Shown: positions 6,001 through 12,000 of the stretch, piece after piece
Numbering within the stretch: the stretch's first letter is position 1
Layout: each line of letters begins with the position of its first letter
IMG/VR virus record: IMGVR_UViG_2681813227_000021
Location: 1 to 13,923 of that record
Reading direction: 5' to 3' (one strand)
Length of the DNA stretch: 13,923 nucleotides
Origin: a virus
Taxonomy: Duplodnaviria; Heunggongvirae; Uroviricota; Caudoviricetes
Position numbers: made by a program

Positions 6001-9000
6001 ATGACTGCTAACGTAACCCCATCTGTTTTTCATTTTGAATCAGAAGCAACCATTCGAGCCATTGTTATTGATGGAAATCCTTGGTTTGTTGCCAAAGACG
6101 TTATTAAAGCTCTTCAACTGACAAACCCCACTATGTCAATAAAATCTCTTGATGATGATGAAAGGGCTAAATTTAACTTAGGCCGTCAAGGCGAAACCAA
6201 TATTATCAACGAGTCAGGCCTCTACACACTGATCCTCCGCTGCCGCGATGCGGTGACACCAGGCACTATCCCCTACCGCTTTCGTAAATGGGTTACAGGT
6301 GAGGTTCTTCCTCAGATCCGCCGCACCGGAAGTTACATTAAAAACTCGCTCCCGCAGGAAGAACGCATAAAGATGGTTGCCGACCAGGTAGCCAACGCCA
6401 CAGCATCAGCAGTGATGCAGGCAATGAAGATAGAGAACAAAACCTACAGTGCCCCACTGAAGCCCGGCTACCGCAGCCTGATTCATTCTCCGTCTGGTGT
6501 TCTCGGCCTGACGGAGAACTCACTGCTGATGAATTTGCTGAACCAGTTGCAGGAAGACGGGCACGATGTATCGGGCGCGGCGGCGGAGCTGACCACCATG
6601 TTTTGCTACATCGTTGGTGTGAGCAAATGCCTGCGTGATATCCAGACTCACGCGGAGTACATCAACGACAAGGCTGGGTTCTTCTGACGGGCGGCGGCAC
6701 AGGGATGTGCCTTTAAATAATTCTGTACAGATTGCAGACTGTGGGTGAATAGCGTACTATTACCTCAAGGGTAAACGGATTGGTTTCATTTTTATTAATC
6801 CGTGTAATGAACTTATGAGATATGAGGTAATGTCATGCGAAACGAAAAATTGCAGATGCGTAGAGCGCAAGCTGCCGCAAGACGTTCTTTCAATGGAAGC
6901 GTAGAGTACGTAAAAGTTACTATGACAAAAGATCACGCAAGTCGCGTATCCCGAGCTTTCTTTGATTCTCGTAACAATAAGGAAAATTATGAGTTCGTCT
7001 GCGTCGCAGAATGATAAAAATCAAATTGTCAGATATAAGGGTCGAGTATTGCATACGCAAAATTTCTCGGCCCTTTGTGCATCTGATCTTGAGCTGAAGA
7101 AAGTATCTGATGCCTTTACCCAGTATTGGAAAACGGGATACCATCCATCTCTTGGTAAAGATGCTGCATTTGCTCGTCCGACAGAAATGCTTAAACTAAA
7201 TGTCAGGCATACTCATGTCGATAACCAAGACTATATTCCAGAAGATAGTGATAAAAAACACACTGGTAAAAAATCATCTTGGGATGCATGGAAAAATATA
7301 GCGTCTGTGCAAGTAAAATGCATACCAACAAGTGATTGCTTTTTAGTTTATTCGGTAAATCACAATCGTGATGCGCTGGTTATGTTTTTTGTTGACGCAG
7401 ATGCCCACAACATAACTGAGCAAGAAGAGTTTAAAGAGGAAGCAATCACTATCAGTTATCAATTCTTTGAGAAAACAAAAACAGAACCAATGCCTTTAGA
7501 AGAAGAGCTTTTTTCTGATAAATGGAAGGAATAAGCCCGCGTTGCGGGCTTTTTTGTGTCTGCGGATTCCCGCCCGGGCGGCGGTGGCATTCGTTAAAAA
7601 CAAGGCCGCGAAAGCGGCCTGTGACATGTCACGATAGTTCCGTTTTGCACATCCCTGTGCCGCCGTTCTGTCAGAAGAACCCTGCCTTGTCGTTGATGTA
7701 CTCCGCGTGGGTCTGGATATCACGCAGGCACTTGCTCACACCGACGATGTAGCAGAACATGGTGGTCAGCTCCGCCGCCGCGCCCGATACATCGTGCCCG
7801 TCGTCCTGTAACTGGTTAAGCAGATTCATCAGCAGTGAGTTCTCCGTCAGGCCGAGAACACCAGACGGCGAATGAATCAGACTGCGGTAGCCGGGCTTCA
7901 GCGGATAACCATAACATTTTGTCTGTGTTTTAATTGCCTCACGAAGCGCATCTAACATCTTGACTGCCACTTCATCATTCTCTGATGCAGATCCAGCAGG
8001 GAGATGCTCCCCTTCAAGCGGAACCCGAGCAACAAGAGACAACGCTTCGGCGAATTGATCTTCATCAATTTCTTTGTACGAACAGCCAAAATGAGATTTC
8101 AGTGACGACCACATGGTGATCATCGCCTTAGCCTGTTTTTCTTTTGGCAGAGACTGACCGCGACTCATGACGAGTTGTTTAATGGCTTCCTGCTGTTCAG
8201 TGGTTATTTTACCCGGCAACGCCTTTTTAGCTTTGCGTGGGTTAACCACATGGCCTTTAGTCCAGTACTCGTAGAGAACATCGTCACACTCTTCCTGATA
8301 CTGGATTACCTTGTCGCGGATTTCAGGGCGGACTTTGTTAGGGCTGATGGTTTGCAACCAGCCAGCAAGTTTGCGAAGTGCCAAACAAATAATCTCACGG
8401 CGCTGTTCATCCCCAGGAAGCTGCATTGTGATTTTCACAATGCAGGTTTTAAACCGCTGCTTCATTTTCGTAAACTGTGAAGCCCAATCCATACCCATGC
8501 CTTCAACGATAGGTTTCATTGGGGTGTACGGTTCTCCGTTGTGATTGACAACATAAAGTTCTGCGCCGTGGAATGGCACGTTGATAGTAGATAGCGCTGT
8601 TGCTATACTCGTCATGTCGTTAATTCCTATACGTAGTTTTACGATACTGAAGCCCTGACGGTCTGGCCACCGTTGGGCTTCGCTGTTTTATGCCACGCTA
8701 TTCTTCTCACCAGTGAGTCCATACACTTTCCTCAGCTGATAGATAATCTCTGTATTGAACTTTCGGCATTCTTTTTCGCCATTTCTTTCAATAGCTAACT
8801 TCACATCGTCCGGAAAACGAACTCGTCGTTGACACATCTCTTTTGCTTTTTGCATTTCATATCTCCTTAGCCCCACCGTGGGGCAAAACAATTGTCACAC
8901 CGTGCGTCATTGATGTCAAGCACACGGTGAGGCATACTTCAATCATTGCAAGTAACTCAATATTTGGTGAAGAACATGAGCAGAGAAGATCCACAACTAA

Positions 9001-12000
9001 GGATCAGACTTCCCGTTGAAGTAAAAGAAAAAATAGAAATTTCTGCAAAAGCCAATAAGCGCTCAATGAACGCTGAAATAGTACAACGTCTTGACACCAG
9101 CTTTCTGAAAGATATTCATGAAGATGACGTAATTTCTGCTTATGAAGCAAAAATTATTGCAAACAATGCACGGCATGAAATATCAAATATTATTTTCAAA
9201 AGAACTTTTAATGAAATCAATAAGAAAATAACACTTGGACATACAAGTTTTTATATAAACCTTAATGACCTTGAACTGGAATCACTTGCAGATAATGATT
9301 ACCAGATCATCTTTGAAAAAACATTTAATAAGCTCAATGAACTAGGTTACATCATCTGTGAAAACTCATGGGATGCAGATGGTTTTGGAATTGAAATACC
9401 TGAATAGGAAGAACAAAAGGCGTGTACATATTACACGTCTTTAATACAATTGAAAAACGCCACATTACTGATGTATGTTACAACAAGGAGCGATATTTTG
9501 AAAACCATATCTATATTAAAGGTTGCATTAGGCGTCGCTATTATTTTGACTCTCTCAATATTGTTTTATTTTTACCACAAAAAAACTGCTATTGCTCTTG
9601 ATGGTCACGCGGCAAACTCATTTTTCTCAGAGTACATAGTGCCGCTATCAGGAAGCGGTATAACAAATAAATATACTGACTATGACATCAAATATGGAAT
9701 TGATGATGGGGAGACTATTGCATTACATGTAATCATTAAAAACCTAATGACAGTAAATAAAAATACAGACTTCAACGATAAAAATACAATACATCACAAC
9801 AACAGCAAAACATTAATTTCTTATAGTAGCAACATCTATACGGATAAATACCTAAAATACATCTCAGAAGATACAATAAAAGCAACCAGCGAAAAGTTAA
9901 AAAACATATATTGTGCATCCGGCAGTTTTCACAAATTATCGCCGCAAGAGCGTTTATTCTACGAAGCAAGAAAACAACGTAAGTCAATAATATTACATTA
10001 TTATGCTGATTCAGGAGAGTCACTCATATTTAATATTGGGGTTTCCCCTGAATCATGCTAAAGGCGTTTAACTCACCGCATCACCGGATCCACCTGGTTT
10101 ATTAGTGGCGCAATCCAGAACAGGTTATTGCCTGGTATCAGGGTTCGGACATTATGCACAATACGATCACCGGCATCACCATTCAACACTCCTGCGGTCA
10201 CATCAATGATGCTATCCGCAAGACCAAATGACGGTCCGAATAGAGATCCTACGAATCCACGACTGGCATACCTAGACTGTGTGCCAGTGCCAAATAAAGC
10301 CCCCAGCCCAACAGCACCACCAGTAGCCTTTTCAGCCATGTTGTTATATTCCATCAATGGCCCAAGAATACCGGATCTCTCTATACCCTCAAGCACCAGC
10401 TTCTCTGGTGACCAGTCAACATTTTTCCCTTTCGATGCTTCTTTTAGCGCATAGACCAGTGAGCCAAGAGCAATCTGAAATACAGTGCCATAATAAAATT
10501 GCGCAGTTCCTTCCTGTAACCCACCAAGTAGCGCACGGTTGTATGAAGCCGTTGTGAATGATTTAAACTGAAATATCGTTCGCCCCATTGGAGTACTCGC
10601 CCATAAAGGTGTGTCACCAATACCGGGGGTGATGATAGTGTTATTAACGTCTTTCAGAACCGCTGACTGGAATACTCCGGCAACGTACTGATCGTCCCAT
10701 TTATCAAAGTTACCAATGTGCCATCCATCAATTACCTCACCATGTTTCTCGAACTCACTGCGAATACGCGCAGCCATATTGTCGTTGATACCGAGTTTTG
10801 CCATGCGACGTGCAGAAAACGCACCAGACAAAATACCGTCTGACGTGAGCATTCCGTTCATGGATTTGTTTATGTCATTAAATCGATCCATGAGTGTCAG
10901 CTTGCCGAAGGCATCAGTAATTCGCTCCATTCCTGCTTCGACTGCTGTTGTCCTGGAAGAACTGTCAACAAGATCACCAATTGCACGAGAACGTGAATGT
11001 AGTACAGCTTCCAATCCAATCCCCATCTTCAACATCTCTTCTTTGCTGGCCTTAAATGCCGGTGATTGGGATATCTGAGAAGCATAGCCTTTCATGGTGT
11101 TACGGAAACCATTAACCATAACCCCTCTGGCCAGATCTGGAATAGCTGATACTGTCATTCCACCGAGTTTGGTCGTGAAGTTCACATCCCGCAGAAAAGC
11201 GCCAGCACGAACAAAAAACGAAGACGGATCATCAGGCATACCATATGTACCAACAAGACGATCGCGTAATGCTGTTATGTCTCTGAGATCATTTGCTCTT
11301 GATTTTGAAAGTCTGGACTGTTCTTTCCGTAATTCCTTTTCGTACTTTCGCATTAATGAATCGAGTTTACCCTGAGGAACAACTTCACCATTGCTCTCAT
11401 AACGTGCTTTCAGATTTGCCACACTTTCGTCATATTTCGCCTTTATTTTTTCAGGCACTTCCCGTAACAGACTGTCATATTCGTCCTCAATTAATTGCAG
11501 ACGCTCAGTCATAGTTCGTTTGCCAAATGTTCTCGTCAACTCAATTTCTGCTGCCGCTTCACGGATATGACGTTGCAGCACGTAATTCACATCACTTTCA
11601 AGATAATCCCTGATAAGACTATCAGAAACATTTAATGTTCTTTCTTTCGTACTACCTGCGGCTTTTACAGAAAATACGCTGACAAAATCCTGTGGAACCT
11701 TAGCACCAGTAATTTTATTAATTACGATATCCGCTGCAATTTCAGCATCCTCAGGATCCAGTGTTTTATTTCCTCTCGACCACCAGTCAACCAAAATACG
11801 TCGAAATTTATCGCGTTCACTGATTATTTTTCCAACTTTATATATGCGTGGGAAATAGCTTGCCTGGCCTAATGCTTTCAGTTCTTCATCTGGCGGCAAT
11901 AAACCAAGCTTTTGCATTTCAACTTTCACCCGATTTAATACAGTTCGCATCGCCTGCGCCGTTTCCTGAACAACAGGATTAGCATGCACATCACCGCTTC

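What the first reader, a model, noticed from the sequence alone, without database searches (positions are those of the whole stretch)
8976..10061. AT-rich two-gene moron: Mnt-like DNA-binding domain fused to a novel repeat-containing domain, followed by a membrane-anchored protein
Both genes are visibly AT-rich compared with the flanking structural genes (estimated by eye, not computed) and are transcribed against the late operon, which suggests horizontal acquisition. The first protein couples an Mnt-type RHH domain to an extra ~100-aa domain with an internal duplicated motif (IIF[KE][RK]TFN[EK][IL]N), unlike the short tetramerisation tail of P22 Mnt. The second is a single-pass membrane protein at the position where P22-like phages carry superinfection-exclusion genes. 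Together they are a candidate uncharacterised exclusion or defence pair, or a signal-responsive immI repressor.
Basis: partly seen in the sequence, partly recalled or inferred. Interest (0 to 1): 0.7.

Follow-up and report, generated by a model that had tools for sequence, protein, structure and literature searches.

The report
Long Mnt repressor plus exclusion-like membrane gene
The AT-rich stretch holds two unrelated prophage accessory genes, not a pair: an extended version of the P22 Mnt repressor that belongs to a complete antirepressor-control cassette, and a small exported membrane protein that sits where phage P22 keeps its superinfection-exclusion gene.

Summary
The sequence facts hold. 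Positions 8976-10061 have 32.7% GC against 44.6% for the window, and carry two + strand genes facing the - strand virion operon.

The "two-gene pair" reading does not hold.

Gene 1 (8976-9407, 143 aa) is the mnt gene of a complete P22-type immI cassette: mnt, three operators, arc, sar RNA and ant. Residues 1-86 align with all of P22 Mnt, so only about 57 aa (87-143) are extra. This "long Mnt" is conserved at 52-69% identity across many Enterobacterales genera. In 17 of 17 loci it lies divergent from a 55-aa arc gene across a conserved control region, and none of them has the membrane gene.

Gene 2 really starts at TTG 9498 (187 aa). It has one N-terminal anchor, an exported domain and two conserved cysteines. 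It belongs to a tiny family with 17 representatives among 1.84 billion proteins. All five distant relatives lie convergent with the last internal-virion (ejection) protein gene of TL-2011b-type podophages, without long mnt. This is the position of sieA in P22, but there is no homology to SieA.

The repressor role is well supported. The exclusion role is inferred from position only. Interest is modest: a new variant of known kinds.

The parts
8976..9407 (+). Long-mnt gene, 143 aa. The RHH DNA-binding domain is residues 1-46 (8976-9113). The Mnt-type C-terminal helix is residues 55-86 (9138-9233). The family-specific alpha/beta extension is residues 87-143 (9234-9404).
   Evidence: Pfam Arc E 1.1e-14 and full-length PHROG 1388. 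Colinear with the whole of P22 Mnt. AF2 pLDDT 79.5 with H55-86, E91-95, H106-122, E126-133, E136-140. pN/pS is 0.04-0.07 among E. coli alleles.
8869..8885 (.). Operator-like site O1, AGCCCCAC-C-GTGGGGCA. It lies just downstream of the Pant -10 and has the same CCACCGTGG core and relative position as the palindrome AGGTCCACCGTGGACCT in P22.
8893..8909 (.). Operator-like site O2, TGTCACAC-C-GTGCGTCA. It is nearly invariant in 16 loci from different genera and overlaps the -10 and spacer of Pant.
8918..8934 (.). Operator-like site O3 (CAC-G-GTG core), inside the spacer of Pmnt. It is degenerate in this window and reads CCCCAC-N-GTGGGGCA in most other genera.
8891..8919 (-). Pant-like promoter: TTGACA, 17-nt spacer, GACAAT, with TG upstream of the -10. 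It reads into arc-ant.
   Evidence: 10 of 12 matches. The hexamers are conserved in the footprint.
8910..8938 (+). Pmnt-like promoter: TTGATG, 17-nt spacer, CATACT (CATAAT in other genera). It stands back-to-back with Pant, with the -35 hexamers overlapping by 2 bp.
   Evidence: Assigned by eye from the conserved alignment; the consensus scan did not call it.
8688..8855 (-). arc-like gene, 55 aa. It is the constant divergent partner of long mnt.
   Evidence: RHH PHROG hits. 33% identity to the Mnt N-terminus with the same QxRxRxP strand. Present in 17 of 17 long-mnt loci.
8617..8684 (+). sar antisense RNA in the arc-ant intercistronic region.
   Evidence: Rfam RF00262, 45.2 bits against a gathering score of 43, E 1.8e-8 on the sub-region.
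7671..8615 (-). ant, the P22-type antirepressor and the regulated target of the cassette.
   Evidence: Pfam P22_AR_N E 9.6e-45 and PHROG 524 'anti-repressor Ant'.
9421..9437 (.). Hairpin CGTGTA-CATAT-TACACG, 14 nt after the mnt stop codon. It may act as an mnt terminator or attenuator ahead of the membrane gene.
   Evidence: It scores as terminator-like only on the - strand, so its role on the + strand is inferred.
9498..10061 (+). Gene for a 187-aa signal-anchored exported protein (PHROG 8033, TL-2011b gp39). It has a TTG start and an AAGGAG Shine-Dalgarno sequence at 9485-9490. The hydrophobic anchor is residues 4-22. The exported domain is residues 27-187, with conserved Cys139 and Cys187.
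   Evidence: pN/pS is 0.2-0.3. It is convergent with the 1004-aa internal virion protein gene here and in 5 of 5 distant relatives.

Best explanation
The interval holds two independent accessory genes of a TL-2011b-type temperate podophage.

(1) Gene 8976-9407 is the maintenance repressor (Mnt) of a complete P22-type immI cassette: mnt, arc, sar and ant. Its RHH dimer most likely binds the three 17-bp sites of the form TGnCnCAC-N-GTGnGnCA (O1-O3) in the 120-bp divergent control region. This would shut off Pant, and so arc-ant, in the lysogen, and autoregulate Pmnt through O3. It differs from P22 Mnt by a conserved 57-aa alpha/beta extension. That extension packs on the Mnt-type helix. I infer that it alters or strengthens oligomerisation so that several operators are bound cooperatively. 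The 55-aa Arc carries the same QxRxRxP recognition strand. It therefore probably uses the same sites, unlike P22, where Arc and Mnt have different operators.

(2) Gene 9498-10061 encodes an inner-membrane-anchored, periplasm-facing, disulfide-containing protein. It is genetically linked to the ejection-protein genes, not to mnt. Its most likely role, inferred from position and topology only, is superinfection exclusion: blocking assembly or function of the incoming ejection-protein conduit of related phages. This would be analogous to P22 SieA but not homologous to it.

Shown: homology, architecture, synteny, operator conservation and purifying selection. Inferred: which protein binds which site, the role of the extension, and the exclusion function.

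My confidence is about 0.85 for part 1 (Mnt-type repressor of ant) and about 0.35-0.4 for the exclusion role in part 2.
For: Part 1:
- Pfam Arc E 1.1e-14.
- Colinear with the whole of P22 Mnt.
- P22_AR_N ant, arc-like RHH gene, and sar RNA above the Rfam gathering score.
- Same gene order as P22 mnt/arc/ant.
- 17 of 17 long-mnt loci in different genera keep the divergent arc55 gene.
- A phylogenetic footprint of three CAC-N-GTG sites and back-to-back promoters is conserved, while the flanking UTRs are not.
- The pattern occurs nowhere else in the window; 0.03 matches are expected by chance.
- The palindrome at the syntenic place in P22 shares the CCACCGTGG core.
- A 40%-identical long Mnt sits in the repressor position of Pseudomonas Pf phage PfAC03 (PMC7549136).
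- pN/pS is 0.04-0.07.
- The TL-2011b reference, a phage recovered as free particles, has a +1 frameshift in this gene.

Part 2:
- Family-wide positive N-flank, acidic C-flank, a single hydrophobic segment and two invariant cysteines about 50 residues apart.
- All five distant homologues (29-42% identity) lie convergent with the homologue of the 1004-aa internal virion protein (45-74% identity).
- P22 sieA lies at the same place relative to mnt and gene 16. SieA blocks injection through gp16/gp20 (PMC10883804).
- A related E. coli prophage carries an unrelated single-anchor membrane protein at the same spot.
Against: - There are no expression or binding data.
- Promoter-like hits in the region are not above chance (3 found, 5.9 expected). 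Whether the membrane gene is expressed in lysogens is therefore unknown.
- O3 is degenerate in this window.
- The operator spacings of 24-25 bp are not whole helical turns, so simple in-phase cooperativity is not obvious.
- The window protein itself has HKK after the anchor, so its topology rests on the family pattern.
- There is no similarity to SieA (E 0.14), to any Pfam family or to any convincing PADLOC model; the one PADLOC hit is ThsB TIR-like at E 0.013.
- The exclusion role rests on position alone.
Confidence: 0.6

Rival explanations
1. The two genes act together as one defence or exclusion unit. For example, the RHH protein would regulate or neutralise the membrane effector, as in a toxin-antitoxin or regulator-effector pair.
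For: They are adjacent, on the same strand, 90 nt apart, and both AT-rich. They co-occur in the same 36 of 5426 complete E. coli genomes. Many RHH proteins are antitoxins.
Against: Long mnt occurs in 17 of 17 other loci with no membrane-gene homologue, and its downstream neighbour is usually convergent. The membrane family occurs in 5 of 5 distant loci without long mnt upstream. PADLOC gives no match for the long Mnt and only a sub-threshold ThsB TIR-like hit (E 0.013) for the membrane protein. The operators lie upstream of mnt, facing arc/ant, not in front of the membrane gene.
Confidence: 0.06
2. The 57-aa extension of the long Mnt is a sensor or interaction domain. It would bind a small molecule, Arc, Ant or a host factor, making immI repression conditional (a signal-responsive Mnt).
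For: The extension is about as strongly conserved as a functional domain: invariant G88, F92, L99, L101, T116, L120, L123, Y125, F137 and I141 across genera. It is retained in Pf inovirus repressors. P22 Mnt tetramerises without it, so oligomerisation alone may not need it.
Confidence: 0.15
3. The membrane protein is a lysogenic-conversion or envelope-modifying factor. For example, it might modulate O-antigen or other periplasmic host machinery rather than block DNA entry.
For: It is an exported protein encoded in a variable region next to the tailspike and receptor module. TL-2011b also carries an O-acetyltransferase further on. The fold resembles the small periplasmic binding protein AspS, a secretin pilotin.
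Against: Its constant linkage is to the ejection-protein gene, while the tailspike and other cargo vary. There is no enzyme-like motif or family.
Confidence: 0.2
4. The membrane protein serves the phage's own lytic cycle. For example, it could be a periplasmic inhibitor or chaperone of the SLT-domain internal virion protein, or a lysis modulator. It would then have no role in the lysogen.
For: It is adjacent to the internal virion proteins, one of which has an SLT transglycosylase domain. T4 Spackle is a precedent for a periplasmic inhibitor of a virion lysozyme (my own knowledge).
Against: It is transcribed against the virion operon and is replaced by unrelated membrane proteins, or absent, in related phages. 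It is therefore not an essential virion-assembly function. A Spackle-like activity would itself amount to superinfection exclusion.
Confidence: 0.1

Closest known systems
Bacteriophage P22 immI region (mnt / Omnt-Oarc / arc / sar / ant)
   Same: Same gene order and orientations. The Mnt homologue is colinear with the whole of P22 Mnt. There is an RHH Arc-like gene, a sar RNA above the Rfam threshold, an ant with the P22_AR_N domain, and a palindrome with the CCACCGTGG core at the place where P22 has AGGTCCACCGTGGACCT.
   Different: Mnt carries an extra 57-aa alpha/beta extension. There are three similar operators where P22 has one palindrome of this type; by my recollection P22 has one Mnt operator and one unrelated Arc operator. 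Arc and Mnt share the same recognition-strand pattern. The cassette sits in non-P22 phages: a TL-2011b-type podophage, and lambda-like and HK97-like siphophages.
P22 Mnt repressor (83 aa; PDB 1MNT N-terminal domain)
   Same: RHH fold family (profile hit to 1mnt_A, E 1.9e-7), and a C-terminal helix aligned residue for residue.
   Different: 143 aa rather than 83 aa. In the AF2 model the helix is built into a compact alpha-beta-alpha-beta-beta domain, so the quaternary structure may differ. Strand residues are Q7/R9/R11 rather than H6/N8/R10.
P22 SieA superinfection-exclusion protein (PMC10883804)
   Same: The gene lies between mnt and the last ejection-protein gene, on the strand opposite the virion operon. 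It is a membrane protein of an accessory, variable locus.
   Different: No sequence similarity (E 0.14). It has one anchor plus a 160-aa periplasmic domain, whereas SieA has three transmembrane helices. It lacks the FxRYPxEAxxFNK motif. The associated ejection proteins are T7-type rather than P22 gp7/20/16.
PA3611 (PDB 3NPD) and the T2SS pilotin AspS (PDB 4FTF) small periplasmic alpha/beta proteins
Arc-family repressor of Pseudomonas Pf inoviruses (PfAC03 ORF7; PMC7549136)
   Same: 40% identity over residues 1-125, including most of the extension. It is divergent from the gene it presumably controls (the excisionase), that is, in a repressor position.
   Different: It is 164 aa with a different C-terminal end. 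It is found in a filamentous phage with no arc/ant partner.

Membership tests
P22-type immI antirepressor-control cassette | An mnt homologue transcribed divergently from arc-ant | tested here: met
   (32% identity over all 83 residues of P22 Mnt, E 3e-14). Gene order compared with P22.
P22-type immI antirepressor-control cassette | A small RHH Arc gene as the first gene of the ant operon | tested here: met
   The 55-aa ORF at 8688-8855 has RHH PHROG hits and aligns to the Mnt N-terminus. It is conserved in 17 of 17 loci.
P22-type immI antirepressor-control cassette | A sar antisense RNA between arc and ant | tested here: met
   Rfam RF00262 at 8617-8684 (+), 45.2 bits against a gathering score of 43. 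The margin over the threshold is small.
P22-type immI antirepressor-control cassette | An Ant antirepressor with the P22_AR N-terminal domain | tested here: met
   Pfam PF10547, E 9.6e-45.
P22-type immI antirepressor-control cassette | A symmetric operator overlapping the start of Pant | tested here: met
   O1 at 8869-8885 lies 5 nt downstream of the Pant -10. It shares the CCACCGTGG core with the P22 palindrome seen. That this P22 palindrome is Omnt rests on my own knowledge (Vershon et al. 1987).
P22-type immI antirepressor-control cassette | Mnt represses ant and maintains lysogeny | not testable with these tools
   Needs genetics or EMSA. The frameshifted mnt in the free phage TL-2011b is suggestive only.
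Mnt repressor sensu stricto | N-terminal ribbon-helix-helix domain | tested here: met
   Pfam Arc E 1.1e-14. PDB profile hits to Arc, Mnt and AmrZ.
Mnt repressor sensu stricto | C-terminal helix that forms the tetramerisation coiled coil | tested here: inconclusive
   The helix is present and aligned, but the oligomeric state could not be modelled. In the monomer model the helix packs on the extra sheet.
Mnt repressor sensu stricto | A protein of about 83 aa that ends after the helix | tested here: not met
   143 aa, with 57 further residues forming beta-alpha-beta-beta. This architecture is conserved in more than 250 clusters.
SieA superinfection exclusion | Sequence homology to SieA types A-C, including the FxRYPxEAxxFNK motif | tested here: not met
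   BLASTP E 0.14, limited to the hydrophobic segment. The motif is absent from the translation.
SieA superinfection exclusion | Polytopic inner-membrane protein (three or four TM helices) | tested here: not met
   One hydrophobic segment only, across the whole family.
SieA superinfection exclusion | Gene next to, and opposite in orientation to, the last ejection-protein gene | tested here: met
   Window, P22, and five distant homologues.
SieA superinfection exclusion | Blocks DNA injection by related phages | not testable with these tools
   Needs plating, K+ efflux or DNA-entry assays.
Known anti-phage defence systems (PADLOC) / type II toxin-antitoxin | A match to a defence or toxin model, and co-inheritance of the two genes | tested here: not met
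   PADLOC gives nothing for the 143-aa protein, and only a ThsB hit at E 0.013 for the membrane protein, which I judge to be noise. The genes are not co-inherited outside one E. coli prophage lineage.

The most novel reading that the evidence does not exclude
The 187-aa protein may found a new family of periplasm-facing superinfection-exclusion proteins. It would be unrelated to SieA and would disable the T7-type ejection-protein conduit (gp14/15/16-like) of TL-2011b-type temperate podophages. The site convergent with the last ejection-protein gene would then be a general exclusion-gene slot, filled by non-homologous single-anchor membrane proteins in different prophages.

A second, less likely novelty is that the long-Mnt extension makes immI repression conditional on a signal or partner.
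Probability: 0.35. Interest if true: 0.5.

Novelty: new variant of a known kind. Interest (0 to 1): 0.3.

Why it matters
If the reading is right, three things follow.

- The P22 immI circuit is a portable cassette. It moves among unrelated temperate phages of Enterobacterales in a "long Mnt" form whose extra domain and three-operator layout have not been studied. This gives a tractable variant for asking how RHH repressors gain cooperativity or new inputs.
- The membrane protein would add an exclusion protein that acts from the periplasm against T7-type ejection proteins. It would also support the idea that the end of the ejection-gene block is a conserved slot for such genes.
- Neither point overturns current understanding. 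Both genes are already catalogued as hypothetical or Arc-family proteins.

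Tried and rejected
- Pfam and NCBI-style family searches for the membrane protein found nothing.
- PADLOC gave only noise.
- BLASTP against P22 SieA showed no similarity.
- Foldseek against viral structures (BFVD) gave nothing at E <= 0.001.
- The afdb50 fold library was not available.
- The search for related loci with the family alignment failed because no stretch was conserved enough.
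- The membrane-family profile hit iota-carbonic anhydrase repeats (7c5x, summed E 3e-7). Each repeat scores only 3-13 bits and the aligned segment is partly helical in the AF2 model, so I treat it as a weak lead.
- There is no LexA box in the mnt/arc control region. The only good one in the window is at 5391-5410.
- I first assumed the prophage was epsilon15-like. Searching with the internal virion protein found no epsilon15 or phiV10 relatives, and NCBI lists TL-2011b as unclassified, so I dropped that label.
- I rejected positive selection on the membrane gene among E. coli alleles; pN/pS is 0.2-0.3.

Full report
**Setting**

The window is the right arm of a prophage that is 99.1% identical over the region to Escherichia phage TL-2011b. 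NCBI lists TL-2011b as an unclassified Caudoviricetes member. The arm reads as follows:

| Coordinates | Strand | Feature |
|---|---|---|
| 1-1071 | + | two exported-protein ORFs beyond the lysis cassette |
| 1291-3100 | - | lysis cassette |
| 3240-5234 | - | tail-fibre/GDSL-esterase tailspike |
| 5300-10061 | mixed | variable accessory region |
| 10073-13087 | - | 1004-aa internal virion protein |
| 13087 onward | - | 3' part (264 aa) of the upstream internal-virion-protein gene |

In homologous prophages the protein encoded just upstream of the 1004-aa gene carries an SLT domain (RefSeq product name; Pfam PF01464). The one before that hits Pfam T7_gp14. The phage therefore has T7-type ejection proteins and is not P22-like. 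A search with the internal virion protein found no epsilon15 or phiV10 relatives.

**Check of the observation**

- The 1086-nt interval has GC 0.327 against a window mean of 0.446. Only 0.4% of equal-sized windows are as low.
- The two genes have GC 0.324 and 0.326, with GC3 of 0.243 and 0.314.
- Both are on the + strand, between - strand arc/ant and the - strand virion operon.
- The N-terminus of the first protein matches Pfam Arc (E 1.1e-14).
- The repeated motif exists and is conserved in the family. The profile-level self-match is short: 13 columns, P 2e-4.
- The second ORF has one hydrophobic segment.
- Its likely start is TTG 9498, seven nucleotides after AAGGAG at 9485-9490. This matches RefSeq and PHROG 8033.

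**Gene 1 is a long Mnt inside a complete immI cassette**

BLASTP aligns residues 1-86 with all 83 residues of P22 Mnt (32% identity, E 3e-14). The AF2 model (pLDDT 79.5) shows:

- the RHH helices;
- a long helix at residues 55-86;
- then beta 91-95, helix 106-122 and a beta hairpin at 126-140, which form the true 57-aa addition.

The cassette around the gene is complete:

- a 55-aa RHH gene (arc) lies divergent from mnt;
- a sar RNA sits at 8617-8684, above the Rfam gathering score;
- an ant gene carries the P22_AR_N domain.

The order and orientation equal those of P22, which reads tailspike gene 9 / ant / arc / mnt / orf59a / sieA / gene 16.

**The partner of long Mnt is arc, not the membrane gene**

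The 143-aa architecture is found in more than 250 clusters at 90% identity. The 120 listed hits are 58-69% identical over the full length, apart from three near-identical E. coli entries. They come from Citrobacter, Enterobacter, Salmonella, Yersinia (including Y. pestis), Proteus, Morganella, Xenorhabdus, Pantoea and other genera.

- In Y. pestis the gene sits in a lambda-like tail operon.
- In Enterobacter it sits in an HK97-like prophage.
- In 14 further species-level genomes, at 52-64% identity, it was fetched with its flanks.

In all 17 loci it is divergent from an arc55 homologue (62-76% identity), about 120-125 bp away. None encodes a relative of the membrane protein. The next gene downstream is usually convergent.

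A 40%-identical relative occupies the repressor position next to the excisionase in Pseudomonas Pf phage PfAC03. PMC7549136 reports that Arc-family genes replace the Pf4r repressor in some Pf prophages.

Among E. coli alleles pN/pS is 0.04-0.07. The gene is lower in GC than its surroundings in 13 of 14 genera. AT-richness therefore belongs to the family.

**Control region**

I aligned the arc-mnt intergenic regions of 16 loci. The alignment shows a conserved 75-bp core flanked by unconserved leaders. The core contains the following elements (coordinates checked):

| Element | Coordinates | Sequence or form | Note |
|---|---|---|---|
| O1 | 8869-8885 | AGCCCCACCGTGGGGCA | overlaps the expected Pant start |
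| O2 | 8893-8909 | TGTCACACCGTGCGTCA | nearly invariant; covers the Pant -10 and spacer |
| O3 | 8918-8934 | CAC-G-GTG core | fills the Pmnt spacer |
| Pant | 8891-8919 (-) | TTGACA, 17 nt, GACAAT | TG upstream of the -10 |
| Pmnt | 8910-8938 (+) | TTGATG, 17 nt, CATACT | CATAAT in other genera |

The three sites share the form TGnCnCAC-N-GTGnGnCA and are centred 24 and 25 bp apart. The two promoters stand back-to-back.

The pattern occurs nowhere else in the window, where 0.03 matches are expected by chance. At the syntenic place P22 carries AGGTCCACCGTGGACCT, which I recall is the Mnt operator. It shares the CCACCGTGG core.

Mnt143 (QLRIRLP) and Arc55 (QRRVRFP) have the same recognition-strand pattern. 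Both probably read these sites. That would differ from P22, which by my recollection uses distinct Mnt and Arc operators.

Which protein occupies which site, and whether the extension provides cooperativity, are inferences.

**Gene 2 is an exported protein tied to the ejection-protein gene**

A word-indexed search found only close E. coli copies. An exhaustive HMMER scan of 1.84 billion representatives found 17 proteins. The named sources are Escherichia, Superficieibacter, Serratia and Klebsiella, and every entry is labelled hypothetical.

The family alignment shows:

- a basic N-terminus, one hydrophobic segment, and a mostly acidic flank after it, which indicates an N-in, C-out topology;
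- the motifs LSGxxAxFFxxYxxP and DYxxxYGxDDG;
- two invariant cysteines (C139 and the C-terminal GVSPxSC).

Together these point to a disulfide-bonded periplasmic domain.

Five distant homologues could be placed in context: L010, L011, L012, L014 and L015. All lie immediately convergent with the homologue of the 1004-aa internal virion protein. None has long mnt upstream.

| Locus | Membrane protein identity | Internal virion protein identity |
|---|---|---|
| L010 | 42% | 45% (152-aa C-terminal fragment) |
| L011 | 29% | 50% |
| L012 | 31% | 74% |
| L014 | 29% | 67% |
| L015 | 29% | 55% (165-aa C-terminal fragment) |

In L011, L012 and L014, where the full internal virion protein aligns, the membrane protein has diverged much further than its neighbour.

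Within E. coli the gene is under purifying selection, with pN/pS of 0.2-0.3.

In the related prophage of strain MS8345, the same position holds an unrelated 175-aa protein that also has a single N-terminal anchor.

**Comparison with SieA**

P22 sieA lies at the same relative position. [quoted passage not shown]

The protein here is not a SieA homologue. It has a different topology and lacks the SieA motif. The exclusion role is therefore an analogy by position, topology and locus behaviour, and I put it at roughly 35-40%.

**Are the two genes a unit?**

They co-occur in the same 36 of 5426 complete E. coli genomes, at 96-99% nucleotide identity, which indicates one prophage lineage. Outside it each gene travels with a different partner. 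No defence model convincingly matches either: PADLOC has no hit for the long Mnt and only a sub-threshold ThsB hit (E 0.013) for the membrane protein. I therefore reject the pair hypothesis and give it about 6%.

**Verdict**

- The first gene is an immI repressor of a conserved but unstudied long form.
- The second is a candidate exclusion protein of a very small family.
- Both are new variants of known kinds, and interest is modest (0.3).

Noticed in passing
window 5770-5952 (+), with 5848-6687: Rfam finds isrK (5770-5846, 74 bits) and a C4 antisense RNA (5866-5952, 79.5 bits) in front of, and overlapping the start of, the mechanical ORF for the BRO-N antirepressor paralogue. This is a second, P1/Gifsy-type antirepressor control module in the same prophage arm, alongside the P22-type one.
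   Followed up: partly
window 5391-5410: There is a near-consensus LexA box, TACTGTATATTTATACAGTT, with 1 mismatch. Only 0.13 matches are expected by chance. It lies upstream of the small gene at 5430-5687 and the isrK/C4/BRO-N module, which suggests that SOS induction enters through this second antirepressor rather than through mnt/arc/ant.
   Followed up: partly
window 6419-6688 and 7670-7939: A 270-nt inverted repeat at 90% identity is formed by the near-identical C-terminal domains (PHROG 450) of the two antirepressor genes. A third copy of the domain is the small ORF at 5364-5687. The repeat brackets the YafO-like gene and could mediate inversion or cassette exchange.
   Followed up: partly
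window 6962-7534 (+), with the small ORF 6835-7014: A YafO-family toxin-like gene (Pfam E 9e-6, just above the cut-off; GC 0.37) sits with a short upstream ORF, a possible toxin-antitoxin pair. Related prophages carry HicA or YafO toxins in the same variable region (L014, L015).
   Followed up: no
L001 (TL-2011b) about 7402, equivalent to window 9000-9002: The TL-2011b reference genome has one extra G (GG to GGG) in codon 9-10 of mnt. This frameshifts the gene, and the record annotates only a 113-aa remnant. Either the phage recovered as free particles is a natural mnt mutant, or this is a sequencing error.
   Followed up: partly
L017 4448-4975 (E. coli MS8345 prophage): An unrelated 175-aa protein with a single N-terminal membrane anchor occupies the position convergent with the internal-virion-protein gene. 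This is non-homologous replacement at the same slot.
   Followed up: partly
L016 2929-3423 (Pseudomonas phage PfAC03): A 164-aa Arc-family protein is 40% identical to the long Mnt through residue 125. It sits divergent from the excisionase of a filamentous phage, so the long-Mnt architecture reaches beyond Enterobacterales and tailed phages.
   Followed up: partly
window 3240-5234 (-): The tailspike-like protein has a T7 tail-fibre N-terminal adaptor and a GDSL/SGNH esterase domain. It is also AT-rich (GC 0.39, GC3 0.29), so low GC is not unique to the flagged interval.
   Followed up: no
window 9576-9800 (membrane protein residues 30-105): The family profile weakly matches each of the three repeats of iota-carbonic anhydrase (PDB 7c5x; summed E 3e-7, but only 3-13 bits per repeat). 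It is unclear whether this reflects a real distant relationship.
   Followed up: partly
window 1-1071: Two + strand ORFs for exported proteins, with lipoprotein-like and signal-peptide N-termini, lie beyond the lysis cassette. I did not determine whether they are host genes at the prophage junction or phage cargo.
   Followed up: no
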